Shown: positions 1-45,508, numbered from the stretch's first letter. The stretch is DNA of 46,060 nt from a virus (IMGVR_UViG_3300045988_015321:1-46060); one strand, 5' to 3'. Notes: a model not told the origin generated them from the letters alone. Translations and numbers: made by a program.

Positions 1-53
1 CGTCTGTGGATTTTATGTAGAACTTTTCGCTTTCGCTGTCCATCAGCAAAACA
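1..53. repeat. Terminal direct repeat, identical to 46008-46060 (circular-assembly overlap or terminal redundancy)
   Basis: cgtctgtggattttatgtagaacttttcgctttcgctgtccatcagcaaaaca occurs at both ends of the window. Confidence 0.95.
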
Positions 54-238
54 CTTGTCCCGGGTGCTACCAGATAGGATTTTGCACCCACTTCACCAGA
101 TACCCACAGGATACCATTGTTGTTCTGCTGTGGTTGCTGTACTGTTTGAGCTGGAATCTGGACAGGCTGTTGCTGGAACTGGTTCATCTGCCCAGGAACG
201 CCAAAACTATATTGATAAGGATTGTTATATAATGCCAT
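1..238 (-). CDS. N-terminal part of a 156-aa Q/N-rich protein that crosses the junction (continues 46007->45775)
   Basis: ATG at 238-236 is preceded by SD GAAAGGCGG. Hand translation gives MALYNNPYQYSFGVPGQMNQFQQQPVQIPAQTVQQPQQNNNGILWVSGEVGAKSYLVAPGTSVLLMDSESEK..., which joins in frame to ORF 45775..46056 through the 53-bp repeat. Confidence 0.6.
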   Translation of the reverse strand, partial: MALYNNPYQYSFGVPGQMNQFQQQPVQIPAQTVQQPQQNNNGILWVSGEVGAKSYLVAPGTSVLLMDSESEKFYIKSTD

Positions 239-41238: not shown

Positions 41239-42405
41239 TCATTTTGCTGTTACAGTCGCATGTCCGGCACTCAATGCCTTATAGGTACTGTCACACTCAA
41301 CCACTGTGATTACCTGCCCTGTTGCTGCTGTAATGTCGGATTCTCCATCCCATGCGCTCCAGTTCTTCACGTTCTGTCCGTAGTCTACGGTAGTCTCAGA
41401 TGATGCAACTTTGTACTTGTACACATTTCCTGCGCTTACTTTTGCCGGAGTAACAGTCACTTTTGTATCTCCGCTCTTACTTCCTGCTGTGGAGTTTACA
41501 GTCAGAGTTCCAAGTGTCTGAGTTGCGTTGATAGTTCCGACAGCAACAGCGTCAATATATTCTGCAAAGAGGGTAAGTCCCATGATTGCGAATGATTCAG
41601 ACACTGCTGTGTGGTAATTGCCCTGCGTATGGAATCCGATCAGATTTGTTTCGCCGGATACAGTATATACAAGACCTGCTCTTGCAAAATCAGATTCGTT
41701 CGGATCCACGTAGTAAAGAACGATGTTCTCACCGGGTGTGGCGATTACTGTTCCTCTCGGAATCTCGCTGTCAGATAACAGGAAGATTGTGTTGAATCCC
41801 AGGAAGTTTTTCACATACTGGAAGCCGAACTGGTTCTGAATAGAAATCTCAGCTGCTCCGATATACTCGTACACGTCCAGAATGTTCACAAATCCAACGA
41901 CGCCAGTCACATTTCTGTGCATCTGCTTGAATTTGTTTTCTACACGACCCTTGGCCATTGCCAGAGCCATCTGGAAAGTAATCTCTGTAAATGTGAGGGT
42001 ACCGGTTTTCAAATAATTGTAAAATCTTTCGGTAACATTGGTCTGAAGCTGGAAGAGGAATTCATCATCGGTCATCTGAACAGCGTTCTCGTAACCGTGA
42101 TCTTTGATTGCTTCGATAGATACAGCCTTTGCGTATTTCTCGATAGTCATTTCTGCATAGGGTTTTTCTTTTACAACGAATTTGCTGTAAGGGATTTCCT
42201 CACCTTCACCAACATTTCCGTTCTGCAATGTACCCTCTGCATATTTTGATTTAAGAACCGCTCCGGGCGTCTTTTTGATTGGACGCATGATACCAAGGAT
42301 TTCACGTAAGTGTTCCCAGTTTCTTTCGAATCTGGTAACAAAGTCAATCTCACGTGCCTTTACCTGAATATCATTAGTCATAATAAGATTAGCTTTTGCT
42401 GTCAT
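41239..42405 (-). CDS. Major capsid protein (HK97 fold) with a C-terminal Ig-like extension
   Basis: 388 aa, follows the scaffold gene. The C-terminal ~90 aa are T/S/V-rich and beta-like (TLTVNSTAGSKSGDTKVTVTPAKVSAGNVYKYKV...). Confidence 0.88.
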   Translation of the reverse strand: MTAKANLIMTNDIQVKAREIDFVTRFERNWEHLREILGIMRPIKKTPGAVLKSKYAEGTLQNGNVGEGEEIPYSKFVVKEKPYAEMTIEKYAKAVSIEAIKDHGYENAVQMTDDEFLFQLQTNVTERFYNYLKTGTLTFTEITFQMALAMAKGRVENKFKQMHRNVTGVVGFVNILDVYEYIGAAEISIQNQFGFQYVKNFLGFNTIFLLSDSEIPRGTVIATPGENIVLYYVDPNESDFARAGLVYTVSGETNLIGFHTQGNYHTAVSESFAIMGLTLFAEYIDAVAVGTINATQTLGTLTVNSTAGSKSGDTKVTVTPAKVSAGNVYKYKVASSETTVDYGQNVKNWSAWDGESDITAATGQVITVVECDSTYKALSAGHATVTAK

Positions 42406-42485: not shown

Positions 42486-43118
42486 TCACTGGAATAACTG
42501 GATATTCTGTGCAATTGCAGCCTGTCTCTCGGACGGGTCTTTGATCGCTTCGATATCTTTCTTCGTCATGCTTCCCGGTGTCTGCTGCTGTCCAACGTGA
42601 GTGGTAAATCTTGCCTGGTTCTGCTGAGCCTGCTGCTGAGATTCATCTACAAAAGCGGATGCGTCAGACTGTTTCATCTGCTCAATCAGGTCGTTCAGCC
42701 CGAGAATTTTACCATCTTTCAGTTTGAGGCCTGCTTCTTTAATATCTGCCATAACAGACTTCTTTGCAGCTTCGCTTGAAAATTTAACATCATCAAGTGC
42801 TGTTTTAAGTGCGTCTGAAAAATCGCGGTCATAGATCTTTGCGTTGAATTCCTTCTCTGCGTCCTCAGCCTTCTTCTTCCATCCAGCAAGCTCTGTCTGA
42901 ATGTTCGCCGGGTCAATACCGTCGAAACCTTTTAAGGTTTCTTCTGCTGTCTCAGCACGTTCTTTCCAGCCATCACGTTCTCCCTCGACTTTTGACAGAG
43001 TTTTCGCTACTTCTTTTGCATTCTTATAATGCTCAGAGAGTGCTTTTTTCACATCTGCCTGTTTGTCCTCCGGGATTTCAATTCCAAATGATTTTAATGT
43101 GTCAATAAGTTTCTGCAT
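42486..43118 (-). CDS. Scaffolding protein
   Basis: SD AGGAGG lies 6 nt before the ATG at 43118 (MQKLIDTLKSFG...). It is an acidic, coiled-coil protein. The upstream part of the ORF-track version lies in the structured leader. Confidence 0.8.
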   Translation of the reverse strand: MQKLIDTLKSFGIEIPEDKQADVKKALSEHYKNAKEVAKTLSKVEGERDGWKERAETAEETLKGFDGIDPANIQTELAGWKKKAEDAEKEFNAKIYDRDFSDALKTALDDVKFSSEAAKKSVMADIKEAGLKLKDGKILGLNDLIEQMKQSDASAFVDESQQQAQQNQARFTTHVGQQQTPGSMTKKDIEAIKDPSERQAAIAQNIQLFQ

Positions 43119-43578
43119 ATGCATCCTCCTGGTCGTGTTTATTGACCTGCCGCCGCAGGTAAGTGGATTAAGCCAGTTAGACCACTGGCAGGGTAAGCGG
43201 AACTTCCAGAGTCGAACTGGAAAACTTGTATCTATATATATTTGTCCTATATCCGATAGGTTCCACATAACCCGGATTCCCGGGTTAGCAAGGTATTTTA
43301 CGTGCTATGCCTAAACACGGAACGTTCGGGCTACGTCAACACCGCCTATACGGTCGCACACCTCTGCACGGGTTGGATTTCACTGTTCAGTTATATGCTC
43401 ACAAGGAGGTATGCCGCCATGCACTAACGGCAATGGTACGTGTCGGAAATTGCATCCGCTTTTCAACCTCCAGGTTCCGCCCGAACCTGTTTCTGTTAAG
43501 GACACGCGCCTAAGAAAGGAGGAATCAATGAAAAAATGTCTATGTCAAGTGGCTACAACCACTTACGAATCTTCCTTA
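43119..43578 (-). ncRNA. Long structured 5' leader / candidate large ncRNA with a tRNA-like minihelix
   Basis: No credible ORF, GC-rich by eye, with many nested complementary segments and a T-arm/acceptor mimic at 43197-43266 (details in findings). Strand is inferred from the upstream promoter-like element. Confidence 0.5.
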
Positions 43579-43585
43579 TGAATAC

Positions 43586-43628
43586 ATTTTACCACAGAAC
43601 CTCCAAAAAGTTGTGGTACATGTTTTGA
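43586..43628 (-). promoter_or_regulatory. Late promoter-like element, copy 3 (conserved box plus extended -10)
   Basis: Minus strand reads TCAAAACATGTACCACAAC, then 18 nt, then TGG-TAAAAT. Confidence 0.6.
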
Positions 43629-43632
43629 CTAA

Positions 43633-44187
43633 TTAGAGCATATCACGGAGCTTTTCCACGTATCTTTTAACAAGATCACGTTCCTCCCGGCACTCCGCAT
43701 CCTTGGACATATCGCTCATTTCTGTTGTGAGTTCGTCCAGATGTTCTTCCAGAGCGGCAAGCATCTTTCTCTTGCAGTCCTCGGATTTGCCGGAACGATA
43801 GCTCTGTTTCTGCGTCATATAGTCGTCATAAGCATCTCGTCCGTCAGAACGGCTGTAATGTCCTCTGACATAATGCTCACCGCGTCTGGCATAAGAACTA
43901 CCCCTGTCGTAATCCGGCATCATTCTGCCGTCATTTGAGCTGTATCTCCCCATGCTGTCGCGCTTTCTTCCACGTTCGCTGTAATCGTCATTGTAGCCAC
44001 CACGCATCTCATCAAGGACAGTATTGTAATATTCCACTTTCTTGTCCCAGTACTGCGTATTCTTGATATCTTTATACATATCAATCAGTTTGTATGTCAT
44101 TTCCAGATTTCCAGTGGTCAGCCCACTGTCAGCAATTTTGGACAGTTCGTCTTCAATTCTTGCACATAAGTCTTTAATGTCTCTCAT
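43633..44187 (-). CDS. Hypothetical protein with a central R/G/Y/D/S-rich disordered region
   Basis: SD AGGAGG lies 7 nt before the ATG at 44187. The core reads RGGYNDDYSERGRKRDSMGRYSSNDGRMMPDYDRGSSYARRGEHYVRGHYSRSDGRDAYDDY, flanked by helical ends. Confidence 0.6.
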   Translation of the reverse strand: MRDIKDLCARIEDELSKIADSGLTTGNLEMTYKLIDMYKDIKNTQYWDKKVEYYNTVLDEMRGGYNDDYSERGRKRDSMGRYSSNDGRMMPDYDRGSSYARRGEHYVRGHYSRSDGRDAYDDYMTQKQSYRSGKSEDCKRKMLAALEEHLDELTTEMSDMSKDAECREERDLVKRYVEKLRDML

Positions 44188-44198
44188 AATCACACCTC

Positions 44199-44731: not shown

Positions 44732-45508
44732 TTAACAATTACATCCGGTGTTGCATCCGCATCCGTAATATGTGTTCGGATTAGGAACCTGATATGCCGG
44801 AATCGGTGCTGGATTAATCGCATTAATGAGCTGCTGTGTCTGAGAAGCCATTGCAGTTGTGAGAAGCGCACTCTGGCGATCCTGAGAAGCGGCACGTCTG
44901 AGGTCGTTATTTTCAGCCTGGAGATTGGATATCTTCTCGTTGCACAGGTAATCAAGGATTGCCCTTGTTCCGGCGTTCTGGCTGTCGATAATGTCTCTTG
45001 TGTTACTGTTCATGGTGTTCTGCAATGCACAGGTATTCTGTGCCATGTTGTAGTTTATGCCCTGGATTGCTTCTCTGGTTTCGCAGCAGCAGTTTGCAAG
45101 CTGTGCCTGGAGTGCATTGGTATTCTGCATATTTGCTACAGTGTCAGCATTAATAGCCTGCTGAATGCCGAAACCAGTCTGCATGATGTTTGTGTTGATT
45201 CCGTTAAATCCGGTAAGCATACCGTTATTCATAGCATAGAAGCCATCACACAGGCCGCTATTGATTCCGTCAAGCTTGCTGATTACAGCGGAATTGTCGA
45301 ATCCTCTCTGAATATCTGCCTGAGTAGCTGCTGTAGCTACATATCCTCCGCCGTTTCCATTATTGCCCCAGCCGTTGTTTCCCCATCCGCAAAATGCGAA
45401 CAAGAAAAGCACGATAAGCCACCATGCGCCATCTCCGCCAAACATTCCATCATTTCTGTTGTTCCCGGTCAAAAGAGCAACGTCTGATGCTGTTAAATTT
45501 CCATCCAT
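44732..45508 (-). CDS. Membrane-anchored N/Q/G-rich, Cys-rich protein (YjcZ-like N-terminus)
   Basis: N-terminus GGDGAWWLIVLFLFAFCGWGNNGWGNNGNGGG, a Q/N-rich helical core with CCC and other conserved Cys, and the C-terminus YYGCGCNTGCNC. SD AAGGAG. Confidence 0.6.
   Translation of the reverse strand: MDGNLTASDVALLTGNNRNDGMFGGDGAWWLIVLFLFAFCGWGNNGWGNNGNGGGYVATAATQADIQRGFDNSAVISKLDGINSGLCDGFYAMNNGMLTGFNGINTNIMQTGFGIQQAINADTVANMQNTNALQAQLANCCCETREAIQGINYNMAQNTCALQNTMNSNTRDIIDSQNAGTRAILDYLCNEKISNLQAENNDLRRAASQDRQSALLTTAMASQTQQLINAINPAPIPAYQVPNPNTYYGCGCNTGCNC

What the first reader, a model, noticed from the sequence alone, without database searches (positions are those of the whole stretch)
43119..43600. 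~460-nt structured, ORF-free leader with an embedded tRNA-like minihelix in front of the scaffold/capsid operon
This is one of the two largest non-coding gaps in a tightly packed genome, and by eye it is much more GC-rich than its flanks. It contains many nested complementary segments (plus-strand coordinates):
- gttcgggc 43324-31 pairs with gcccgaac 43479-86, a span of ~150 nt.
- ggaggt 43405-10 pairs with acctcc 43466-71, nested inside the pair above.
- aacccgg-attc-ccgggtt forms a hairpin at 43269-86.
- aagtgg/ccactt lie at 43547-64.
- acctgc/gcaggt lie at 43145-60.

On the minus strand, 43266->43197 reads GUGGAAC...UUCCAG-UUCGACU-CUGGAA-GUUCCGC. That is a 7-bp acceptor-like stem stacked on a T-arm with a canonical UUCGANU loop, in a 70-nt unit. 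It also contains a small D-like hairpin (CCUAU-CGGAU-AUAGG). The anticodon-arm position is filled by AUAUAUAUAG, which cannot pair.

The leader carries two CCUCC (anti-SD-like) and two extra GGAGG boxes that could alternately mask the scaffold RBS (AGGAGG at 43125-30). Large ornate RNAs of phages and prophages (GOLLD, ROOL) are known to sit next to or enclose tRNA-like units, and bacterial Y-RNA-like RNAs mimic tRNA. This element could belong to or resemble such classes, or it could be a new late-operon riboregulator.
Basis: partly seen in the sequence, partly recalled or inferred. Interest (0 to 1): 0.78.

Follow-up and report, generated by a model that had tools for sequence, protein, structure and literature searches.

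The report
Modular phage scaffold-gene leader RNA
The gap in front of this gut phage's scaffold and capsid genes is a promoter plus a roughly 460-base leader made of several exchangeable RNA modules, including the catalogued but unexplained RAGATH-21 motif and a conserved tRNA look-alike with no anticodon that probably marks where host tRNA-processing enzymes cut the transcript.

Summary
The sequence features are real, but the region is not one large ornate RNA. All genes here are on the minus strand. Positions 43119-43632 hold a conserved promoter-like site and the 5' leader of the scaffold gene (PF06810).

- **RAGATH-21.** Rfam finds a full-length RAGATH-21 (43510->43435, 91 bits). In 131 of 131 evaluable loci this motif lies 79-1230 nt upstream of a scaffold gene.
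- **tRNA slot.** Between RAGATH-21 and the ribosome-binding site, relatives carry 0-5 tRNA genes. Here the slot holds a 70-nt cloverleaf (43266->43197) whose anticodon arm is replaced by a short capped hairpin. ARAGORN and Rfam do not call it a tRNA. Its stems are kept by compensatory changes, and it is about 15-fold less diverse than neighbouring synonymous sites.
- **Long-range pairings.** The two long-range pairings are at chance level and are not conserved.
- **Other families.** No GOLLD, ROOL, YrlA, riboswitch or ribozyme match.

Most likely mechanism (inferred): RNase P and RNase Z excise the tRNA-like unit, releasing the RAGATH-21 RNA and leaving a scaffold-capsid mRNA with a hairpin-protected 5' end.

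RAGATH-21 is known. The anticodon-less cassette and the modular architecture appear to be new variants.

The parts
43586..43596 (-). Promoter-like extended -10 (TGTGGTAAAAT). The upstream box ACATGTACCACAA lies at 43611-43623. The predicted transcription start is about 43577-43580.
   Evidence: A TGnTAnAAT element sits just after the stop codon of the upstream gene in every lineage examined. In most lineages a GTGGGGA-type box begins 29-30 nt before the -10 hexamer. The simple -35/-10 scan found nothing. This is an inference; there are no transcript data.
43547..43564 (-). 5'-proximal hairpin H0 (AAGUGG-UUGUAG-CCACUU)
   Evidence: The stem is replaced compensatorily by AAGCA/UGCUU in L001 and by AAAUGGA/UCCAUUU in L131.
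43514..43536 (-). U-run plus anti-Shine-Dalgarno-like box 1 (UUGAUUCCUCCUUUC; CCUCC at 43518-43522)
   Evidence: A CCTCC lies just upstream of RAGATH-21 (about 5-31 nt before the scanned motif window) in 85 of 92 distinct contexts, including lineages with unrelated flanks. It resembles the 3' end of 16S rRNA (my own knowledge). There is no conserved opposite-strand start codon.
43435..43510 (-). RAGATH-21 RNA motif (Rfam RF03097), full length
   Evidence: 91.0 bits against a gathering score of 70.3, E = 8.7e-17, model positions 1-76. Relatives score 71-92 bits with covarying P1, P2 and P4 stems.
43402..43433 (-). Hairpin H2 (UGCCGU...GCGGCA) followed by box 2 (AUACCUCCUUG; CCUCC at 43405-43409)
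   Evidence: The stem covaries (CGCCG/CGGCG in L130, CUGUCUA/UAGACAG in L003, GCCAUCU/AGAUGGC in loci that carry the ALT element). Box 2 is kept even where RAGATH-21 is absent.
43269..43319 (-). Pre-slot module: hairpin a (CGUG..AGGCAUAG..CACG, 43301-43319) and hairpin b (AACCCGG-GAAU-CCGGGUU, 43269-43286)
   Evidence: Present in 95 of 125 loci. Hairpin b covaries (AACCGGCAUCGCCGGUU in L005, AACCGGCGUUUGCCGGUU in L036). Hairpin a changes to GUGC..GCAC in L005.
43196..43266 (-). 'Type A' anticodon-less tRNA-like cloverleaf occupying the tRNA cassette slot (discriminator U at 43196)
   Evidence: The RNAalifold consensus is a cloverleaf. There are compensatory changes at acceptor pair 6:67 (A-U, A.C, G-C) and in the D-like stem (A-U to G-C). 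ARAGORN finds no tRNA and Rfam gives no tRNA hit at E<=10. The homologous slot holds real tRNAs in relatives. Nucleotide diversity pi is 0.018 against 0.265 at scaffold third-codon positions.
43119..43195 (-). Post-slot leader ('PSL'): UUACCCUG, hairpin 1 (43172-43189), CUUAAUCCA, hairpin 2 (43145-43160), RBS AGGAGG (43125-43130)
   Evidence: Six base pairs show compensatory changes across 22 diverse sequences whose scaffold proteins are 27-100% identical. The module always starts right after the discriminator of the last cassette. There is no Rfam hit at E<=10.
42486..43118 (-). Head scaffolding protein gene (start ATG at 43118)
   Evidence: phrog_194 at 2.9e-22. PF06810 Phage_scaffold (formerly GP20) at 2.1e-22. 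The start codon is conserved in relatives.

Best explanation
Positions 43119-43632 are the promoter and the ~460-nt 5' leader of the scaffold-capsid genes of a temperate siphophage of Lachnospiraceae.

The leader is a chain of separately conserved, exchangeable RNA modules, in this order:
1. A 5' hairpin.
2. An anti-Shine-Dalgarno-like CCUCCUUUC box.
3. The RAGATH-21 motif.
4. A second hairpin plus a second CCUCC box.
5. A two-hairpin pre-slot module.
6. A tRNA cassette slot.
7. A two-hairpin element abutting the ribosome-binding site.

In this phage the slot holds a 70-nt tRNA look-alike. It keeps the acceptor stem, a GG-containing D-like hairpin and a canonical T arm, but has a capped hairpin instead of an anticodon loop, so it cannot decode.

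Proposed mechanism:
- Shown: the anatomy, the conservation and the covariation.
- Inferred: the cleavage. Host RNase P and RNase Z recognise the acceptor/T-arm shape and excise the unit, as they would the real tRNAs in sister phages.
- That cut would separate the upstream RAGATH-21-containing RNA from the scaffold-capsid mRNA.
- The mRNA would then begin at the invariant UUACC and be shielded by two conserved 5' hairpins, with its RBS free of the upstream anti-SD boxes.
- The biochemical role of RAGATH-21 itself stays unknown.
For: - RAGATH-21 scores 91 bits over its full length.
- In 131 of 131 evaluable RAGATH-21 loci a scaffold homologue (27-100% identical) lies 79-1230 nt downstream on the same strand.
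- ARAGORN finds same-strand tRNAs between the two in 93 of 125 loci, and in most of about 20 scaffold lineages.
- In the 95 loci of this phage family the slot is never empty (75-991 nt). Its first unit is often an aberrant tRNA-like RNA, of type A, B or C.
- Type A stems are maintained by compensatory changes across 9 variants.
- Diversity is 0.018 for type A and 0.020 for the post-slot leader, against 0.265 at adjacent synonymous sites.
- No slot tRNA encodes CCA, and trailers start UUA/UAC. In type A the base before G1 is U and the discriminator U is followed by UAC, which fits RNase P/Z substrates (enzyme preferences are from my own knowledge).
- The post-slot leader starts immediately after the discriminator whatever the cassette, and its hairpins covary.
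- In 24 of 75 closest relatives RAGATH-21 is replaced by an element with a T-arm-like hairpin ACAGG-UUCGAAU-CCUGU stacked on the closing stem.
- A promoter-like element is conserved across lineages.
Against: - There are no transcript, end-mapping or cleavage data. The promoter and the processing are inferred.
- The type A sample was selected by an exact 22-nt T-arm match, which inflates its apparent conservation. A recent horizontal spread of the cassette could mimic purifying selection.
- Some lineages (L128 and the L125 family) have no tRNA or tRNA-like unit between RAGATH-21 and the scaffold gene, so excision there is not universally required.
- The window's own copy carries a C->A change that weakens the central hairpin, as a decaying gene would.
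- One relative (L208) lacks both RAGATH-21 and its substitute.
Confidence: 0.5

Rival explanations
1. The tRNA-like unit is just a decaying tRNA gene left in a recombination-prone tRNA slot. It has no function of its own, and only RAGATH-21 and the RBS-proximal hairpins matter.
For: - The slot holds ordinary tRNAs (Met, Tyr, Ile, Asn, Gln) in sister phages, and its contents swap freely.
- Neither ARAGORN nor Rfam recognises the window copy.
- The window copy has two private substitutions, one of which breaks a pair.
- Lineages without any cassette exist.
Against: - Compensatory changes keep the acceptor and D-like stems paired in diverged copies.
- More than 50 contigs carry type A, with diversity about 15-fold below neighbouring synonymous sites.
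- Three different anticodon-less designs (A, B and the ALT element) recur, and all keep the acceptor and T arms.
- The slot is never empty in 95 family members.
Confidence: 0.22
2. The leader is a cis-acting riboregulator. RAGATH-21 binds a ligand, a protein or the ribosome, and the two CCUCC boxes alternately mask the scaffold RBS to time or autoregulate scaffold and capsid translation.
For: - RAGATH-21 is invariably upstream of scaffold genes.
- It has highly conserved junction nucleotides with variable stems, an aptamer-like pattern.
- CCUCC box 1 is present in 85 of 92 contexts and box 2 in 62 of 92.
- UCCUCCU can pair with the AGGAGGA of the RBS over 7 bp (read directly from the sequence).
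- Scaffold synthesis is autoregulated post-transcriptionally in phage P22 (my own knowledge).
Against: - The distance from RAGATH-21 to the RBS ranges from 79 to 1230 nt, with tRNAs in between that should be excised, which would sever any cis link.
- RAGATH-21 is swapped for another element, or lost, in a third of phages whose scaffold proteins are at least 97% identical.
- Both pairing partners are invariant, so there is no covariation support.
Confidence: 0.18
3. The anticodon-less tRNA look-alikes (and perhaps RAGATH-21) act in trans. They would serve as decoys or inhibitors for host factors that recognise tRNA shape, for example anticodon nucleases or other tRNA-targeting defences.
For: - Several independent anticodon-less designs are maintained next to real tRNAs (Tyr, Asn, Met, Gln).
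- Phage tRNAs are known to counter tRNA-cleaving defences (my own knowledge).
- Rfam files RAGATH-21 as an sRNA gene.
Against: - There is no direct evidence.
- Anticodon nucleases mostly read the anticodon loop, which these RNAs lack.
- The fixed position in front of one gene argues for a cis or processing role.
Confidence: 0.08
4. The whole ~460-nt region folds into one large ornate RNA of the GOLLD/ROOL kind, with the minihelix embedded in it.
For: - The region is long, free of conserved ORFs and near tRNA-like sequence.
- Its folding energy is slightly better than shuffles (z = -2.5).
Against: - There is no GOLLD or ROOL hit, even at E<=10.
- The long-range helices are at chance level and not conserved.
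- The modules recombine independently, and the slot length varies from 75 to 991 nt.
- The plus strand folds equally well.
Confidence: 0.02

Closest known systems
RAGATH-21 RNA motif (Rfam RF03097, from the Breaker-lab comparative-genomics motif surveys)
   Same: Positions 43510->43435 are a full-length member. It has the same four-stem junction and the same conserved CCUUAA-AGAAA and GAGGUUGAAAAGCGGAUGCAAUUUCCG cores, and it occurs in a phage.
   Different: - It covers only 76 of the ~510 nt flagged.
- No function is published in any text I could search.
- The links found here may or may not be in the original supplement, which I could not read. These are the link to scaffold genes, to downstream tRNA cassettes and to an upstream CCUCC box.
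GP20-a / GP20-b motifs and the six further candidate RNAs upstream of GP20 (PF06810) genes (Rfam RF02991, RF03003; PMC10690425)
   Same: These are conserved structured RNAs directly upstream of the same scaffold gene family. GP20-b sits between RAGATH-21 and the scaffold RBS in sister lineages.
   Different: The window has a different two-hairpin element at that place, with no GP20-a or GP20-b hit at E<=10. It might equal one of the unnamed candidates (for example DNAVirus_56, from Lachnoclostridium phages), but the models were not available to me.
tRNA-like processing signals: plant mitochondrial t-elements, mascRNA from MALAT1, mitochondrial tRNA punctuation, and bacterial tRNA-mRNA co-transcripts such as the tyrU-tufB operon (my own knowledge)
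   Same: An acceptor/T-arm shape embedded in a longer transcript next to an mRNA. No anticodon function is needed. RNase P and RNase Z are expected to define the neighbouring RNA ends.
   Different: - Cleavage is not shown here.
- The setting is a phage late operon.
- The unit sits in a slot that other phages fill with working tRNAs.
Canonical phage-encoded tRNAs
   Same: The unit occupies the same slot, has the same flanks and shares the acceptor-stem sequence family (GGAAU...) with the real tRNA-Met, Ile and Asn genes of sister phages. Its T loop is canonical.
   Different: It has no 7-nt anticodon loop, and ARAGORN and the Rfam tRNA model do not detect it.
GOLLD and ROOL large RNAs
   Same: They are phage- or prophage-associated and often lie near tRNAs (PMC5737381).
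   Different: There is no sequence or structure match, and the size and architecture are far smaller and modular.

Membership tests
RAGATH-21 (RF03097) | Covariance-model score at or above the curated gathering score (70.3 bits), full-length match | tested here: met
   91.0 bits, E = 8.7e-17, model positions 1-76, minus strand 43510-43435
RAGATH-21 (RF03097) | Stems P1, P2 and P4 supported by compensatory variation while the junction nucleotides stay fixed | tested here: met
   P1 and P2 differ with pairing kept across more than 20 lineages. P4 changes from A-U to G-C or G.U.
RAGATH-21 (RF03097) | Genomic neighbourhood shared with twister and hammerhead ribozymes (the origin of the name) | not tested
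   I showed only that a PF06810 scaffold gene follows in 131 of 131 loci. No ribozyme was found in the 21 sources scanned.
tRNA (RF00005 / ARAGORN) for 43266-43197 | Recognised by tRNA detectors | tested here: not met
   ARAGORN finds 0 genes in the window. Rfam gives no tRNA hit at E<=10 in a 1-kb search.
tRNA (RF00005 / ARAGORN) for 43266-43197 | 5-bp anticodon stem with a 7-nt loop | tested here: not met
   The consensus is 3 bp, an internal loop, then 4 bp capped by a tetraloop.
tRNA (RF00005 / ARAGORN) for 43266-43197 | 7-bp acceptor stem stacked on a T arm with a UUCRANN loop | tested here: met
   GUGGAAC/GUUCCGC plus UUCCAG-UUCGACU-CUGGAA
tRNA-like processing element (t-element / mascRNA type) | Acceptor/T-arm minihelix with no decoding function, embedded in a longer transcript | tested here: met
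   It lies between the promoter-like site and the scaffold RBS. Co-transcription is inferred.
tRNA-like processing element (t-element / mascRNA type) | Cleaved by RNase P at the 5' end and RNase Z at the 3' end, which defines the ends of the neighbouring RNAs | not testable with these tools
   Only compatible sequence features were found: U at position -1, no encoded CCA, a U after the discriminator, and an invariant UUACC start of the downstream module.
GOLLD / ROOL / YrlA / tmRNA / riboswitches / self-cleaving ribozymes | Match to the Rfam covariance model | tested here: not met
   The only gathering-level hit in the whole window is RAGATH-21. At E<=10 there are only chance-level hits of 20 bits or less. 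ARAGORN finds no tmRNA.
GP20-a / GP20-b | Match to the Rfam model directly upstream of a PF06810 gene | tested here: not met
   No hit in 42900-43900 at E<=10. GP20-b is found in L125, L138 and L044.

The most novel reading that the evidence does not exclude
RAGATH-21, the element that replaces it in a third of sister phages, and the anticodon-less cassettes could all be mimics of tRNA shape. Each has a closing stem stacked directly on a short hairpin with a T-loop-type 7-nt loop (UGCAAUU or UUCGAAU), followed by a conserved unpaired purine and a U-rich trailer.

The scaffold leader would then be an array of RNase P/RNase Z punctuation marks. That would be a phage counterpart of mitochondrial tRNA punctuation. 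It would give RAGATH-21 its first function, and it would explain why ribozymes, tRNAs and these motifs gather in the same kind of phage intergenic region.
Probability: 0.2. Interest if true: 0.75.

Novelty: new variant of a known kind. Interest (0 to 1): 0.55.

Why it matters
- **Context for RAGATH-21.** It is one of many orphan structured RNAs. Tying it firmly to one gene (the head scaffold), to an upstream anti-SD-like box and to a downstream tRNA slot gives concrete, testable hypotheses for its role.
- **Selection for tRNA shape.** Recurrent anticodon-less tRNA look-alikes that are kept by selection would show that phages use tRNA shape, not decoding, to organise late-operon RNA. This would be a cheap way to borrow host RNase P and RNase Z to set the 5' end and the dosage of the most highly expressed structural mRNAs.
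- **Annotation.** tRNA-like units missed by tRNA finders, and a third of the 'non-coding gap', are conserved functional RNA.

Tried and rejected
- **Literature.** No held paper text mentions RAGATH-21, and the 2015 and 2017 supplements are not held.
- **Searching for distant scaffold genes.** I used a protein alignment to look for ribozymes at the same position in other phages. It returned only scaffolds 97-99% identical to the query. That did give an unbiased sample of sister phages, but the ribozyme question stays open.
- **Consensus sigma-70 scan.** It found no promoter. The conserved extended -10 was found by comparing lineages.
- **Small ORFs.**
  - The plus-strand ORFs 43063-43314, 43307-43513 and 43411-43581 are destroyed by slot and module swaps in close relatives.
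  - The antisense ORF 43536-43628 behind a strong SD survives in L002 and L003 but is truncated in L001. The A-run after the first ATG varies from 6 to 8.
  - Other lineages have no start codon after the GGAGG.
  - An ORF starting inside RAGATH-21 (GGAGG-N11-AUG) varies in length, and its A/G start base covaries as a stem pair.
- **attP remnant.** Rejected, because both halves of the acceptor stem are present and the site is inside the head operon.
- **Pairing of CCUCC box 1 with the GGAGG of RAGATH-21.** This could not be tested because both are invariant. It is weakened by the boxes persisting where RAGATH-21 is replaced.
- **A 12-bp tRNA-like stack in RAGATH-21 or the ALT element.** The evidence is suggestive only. 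RNAalifold extends the ALT closing stem to 10 bp.

Full report
**Context**

All genes around the finding are on the minus strand. The window is a circularly permuted siphophage genome.
- Terminase, portal and a MuF-like head protein lie at 7518-1244.
- The order then wraps to five small genes of unknown function at 46056-43633.
- Next comes the gap, followed by the head scaffolding gene (42486-43118; phrog_194, PF06810), the major capsid gene (41239-42405) and a head-tail adaptor.
- Related prophages sit in Lachnospiraceae genomes such as Enterocloster, Blautia, Faecalimonas and Mediterraneibacter.

**Checking the observation**

- The region has 47.3% GC, against 44.5% and 45.5% in the flanking genes and 40.8% for the window. 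That is a modest rise over the flanks.
- Complementary 6-, 7- and 8-mers are close to what dinucleotide shuffles give. For 8-mers, 4 were seen against 2.0 +/- 1.8.
- The whole-region fold is only about 2.5 sd better than shuffles, and this holds on both strands.
- The eye-picked pairings are therefore not individually significant. Conservation has to decide.

**What Rfam and tRNA finders say**

- A gathering-threshold scan of the whole window gives one hit: RAGATH-21 (RF03097) on the minus strand, 43510->43435, at 91 bits against a cutoff of 70.3, full length.
- A permissive scan (E<=10) of 42900-43900 adds only chance-level hits. There is no GOLLD, ROOL, YrlA, riboswitch, ribozyme, GP20-a or GP20-b.
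- ARAGORN finds no tRNA or tmRNA.

**Relatives**

- Six human-gut phage records match the gap.
MT838775 has a ~450-nt insertion with two more tRNAs.
- A scan of IMG/VR for the RAGATH-21 core returned 120 loci, and the species-representative genomes returned 14.
- In 131 of 139 loci a scaffold homologue (27-100% identical) lies 79-1230 nt downstream on the same strand. The other 8 loci are truncated.
- ARAGORN finds one to three same-strand tRNAs between the motif and the scaffold gene in 93 of 125 loci. They are mostly Met-CAU, Tyr-GUA, Ile-UAU, Asn-GUU and Gln-UUG.
- A few lineages have none (L128 and the L125 family).
- RAGATH-21 is therefore a leader motif of scaffold genes, and a tRNA cassette slot usually lies between it and the RBS.

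**The tRNA-like unit**

- In 95 of 125 loci the slot has the same borders. On one side is the hairpin AACCCGGGAAUCCGGGUU. On the other side is the post-slot leader, which starts UUACC and runs into GCCAGUGGUCUAACUGGC.
- The slot holds 75-991 nt and is never empty.
- The window's unit ('type A') occurs in more than 50 IMG/VR contigs as nine sequence variants.
- RNAalifold folds these variants into a cloverleaf with four parts:
  - a 7-bp acceptor stem;
  - a 4-bp D-like stem with a GG-containing loop;
  - a central arm of 3 bp, an internal loop and 4 bp capped by a tetraloop;
  - a 6-bp T stem with loop UUCGACU.
- Acceptor pair 6:67 runs A-U, A.C, G-C. Pairs 2:71 and 7:66 change on one side with pairing kept. 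A D-like stem pair changes from A-U to G-C.
- The window's own copy has a C->A change that opens one pair of the central hairpin.
- Among 23 distinct contexts, nucleotide diversity is 0.018 in type A and 0.020 in the downstream leader. It is 0.265 at third codon positions of the adjacent scaffold gene. The caveat is that 22 nt of the T arm were fixed by the search pattern.
- Sister phages carry other aberrant first cassettes:
  - Type B has a 5-nt 'anticodon' loop and a covarying stem, and scores 26 bits on the Rfam tRNA model.
  - Type C has a 5-nt loop UAAAC.
- In an unbiased sample of 75 loci with scaffolds at least 97% identical, 24 have an A, B or C unit first in the slot.

**The other modules**

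- H0 (43547-64) changes to AAGCA/UGCUU and to AAAUGGA/UCCAUUU in relatives.
- The pre-slot hairpin (43269-86) changes to AACCGGC..GCCGGUU.
- Hairpin 2 of the post-slot leader (43145-60) covaries. That leader has six compensatory pairs across 22 diverse sequences and always starts right after the discriminator of the last cassette.

Further points:
- Sister lineages have the Rfam motif GP20-b at the post-slot place. One has a skipping-rope RNA inside the slot.
- A CCUCC box lies just upstream of RAGATH-21 in 85 of 92 distinct contexts, and a second box lies downstream in 62 of 92.
- Each box follows a hairpin and reads like the 3' tail of 16S rRNA (my own knowledge).
- No conserved opposite-strand ORF explains the boxes.
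- Across lineages, a TGnTAnAAT element sits just after the stop codon of the upstream gene. A GTGGGGA-type box usually begins 29-30 nt before the -10 hexamer.
- In the window this element is TGTGGTAAAAT at 43596-43586, which predicts a leader of about 460 nt.

**Modularity**

- Of the 75 closest relatives, 50 have RAGATH-21.
- 24 have a different element at the same spot. It consists of a closing stem, a small hairpin and a T-arm-like ACAGG-UUCGAAU-CCUGU. Both stems covary, and it resembles tRNA only weakly (15 bits).
- One relative has neither element.
- These alternatives combine freely with every cassette type.
Among 29 distinct P2/spacer combinations, 20 have at most 5 complementary bases, yet all keep the spacer motif.
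- The region is a chain of modules, not one fold.

**Mechanism**

Shown:
- the identity of RAGATH-21;
- its fixed position ahead of scaffold genes;
- the tRNA slot;
- structural conservation of an anticodon-less tRNA-like unit and of the flanking hairpins.

Inferred:
- The leader is transcribed from the conserved promoter.
- RNase P and RNase Z excise the cassette. In type A the base before G1 is U. No slot tRNA encodes CCA, and the base after the discriminator is U. These match known preferences of the two enzymes (my own knowledge).
- Excision would release the upstream RAGATH-21 RNA, together with its anti-SD-like boxes.
- It would leave a scaffold-capsid mRNA starting at UUACC with two 5' hairpins. 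In Firmicutes such hairpins would be expected to slow 5'-end-dependent decay (my own knowledge).

I put about 0.5 on this overall account.

The main rivals are these:
- The unit is a neutral tRNA relic.
- The leader is a cis riboregulator that uses the CCUCC boxes.
- The tRNA mimics act in trans.

What RAGATH-21 does biochemically remains open.

**Comparison and novelty**

- RAGATH-21 is already catalogued.
- Structured RNAs upstream of GP20/PF06810 genes, and tRNA-like candidates in phages, have been reported in general terms (PMC5737381, PMC10690425).
- Three things appear new:
  - the strict coupling of RAGATH-21 to scaffold genes, with a tRNA cassette slot in between;
  - the recurrent, selected anticodon-less tRNA-like cassettes;
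  - the replacement of RAGATH-21 by a T-arm-bearing element.
- I could not read the original supplements, so the first point may be partly known.

Noticed in passing
window 43586-43623 (minus); L004, L005, L012, L028, L108, L111, L126, L137 upstream regions: A bipartite promoter-like motif is conserved across divergent phage lineages. A GTGG(G/T)GA box begins 29-30 nt before a TAnAAT -10, usually with an upstream TG. The window family has TGTACCAC in place of the GTGGGGA box. This might be the site of a phage-specific late activator or sigma factor.
   Followed up: partly
L187-L257 subset (e.g. L187 771-830); same position as window 43435-43510: In 24 of 75 phages whose scaffold is at least 97% identical, RAGATH-21 is replaced by a ~55-nt element. 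It has a closing stem, a small hairpin with a GG loop and a T-arm-like ACAGG-UUCGAAU-CCUGU. It always comes with a different promoter variant (CTGTTATAAT) and a different 5' hairpin. It has no Rfam family. L208 has neither element.
   Followed up: partly
window 43119-43195 (minus) and about 60 related loci: A two-hairpin leader (UUACCYYG, hairpin 1, CUUAAUCCA, hairpin 2, AAUAA..AGGAGG) lies directly 5' of the scaffold RBS. It has six compensatory pairs and no Rfam hit. The invariant AAUCC could pair with the GGAU of the RBS. It may correspond to one of the unnamed GP20-upstream candidates in PMC10690425.
   Followed up: partly
window 43514-43536 and 43402-43433 (minus): Each of the two CCUCC boxes follows a hairpin and reads (GAU)UCCUCCUUUCUUAG or ACCUCCUUG. 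This resembles helix 45 plus the anti-Shine-Dalgarno tail of 16S rRNA. Both boxes persist when RAGATH-21 is replaced. Their partner is unknown.
   Followed up: partly
window 43528-43628 (plus strand): A strong SD (AAAGGAGG) on the antisense strand is followed by ATGs that open a 17-aa and a 30-aa ORF. The 30-aa frame survives in L002 and L003 but is cut to 13 aa in L001. The promoter-variant-B family has a different 19-21-aa antisense ORF with an in-frame 6-nt indel. Probably not coding, but not excluded.
   Followed up: partly
L001, L013, L033, L054, L077, L088, L100, L102, L105 (type B); L003, L008, L015, L053, L058, L062 (type C); L071, L026 (another type): Several further families of aberrant tRNA-like cassettes have normal acceptor and T arms but 5-nt or 9-nt 'anticodon' loops. 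They are usually first in the slot. ARAGORN also calls odd anticodons (Ser-ACU, Asp-AUC, Ala-CGC) in some slots.
   Followed up: partly
L125 4638-4700, L012, L043, L046, L132 upstream of RAGATH-21: Some lineages have a small zinc-ribbon-like gene (about 83 aa) inserted upstream of RAGATH-21. It ends in a repeated AGAGCCAG-nCGCCAG-nCGC-AGAGCCA tract and a strong intrinsic terminator that abuts the CCUCC box. Transcription would therefore have to read through a terminator to reach RAGATH-21 and the scaffold gene.
   Followed up: no
L136 1190-1273: A skipping-rope RNA (RF02924, 49 bits) sits inside the tRNA slot, between a tRNA-Thr and a second tRNA-like unit.
   Followed up: no
window 43633-44193 and 44732-45508 (minus): The gene just upstream of the leader encodes a 186-aa protein with an Arg/Ser/Tyr/Asp-rich low-complexity centre (phrog_28802, no Pfam). 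It is conserved in the same position in L125. A 258-aa protein has a Gly/Trp/Asn-rich N-terminus and a Cys-rich C-terminal GCGCNTGCNC tail (phrog_16490). Both are of unknown function.
   Followed up: no
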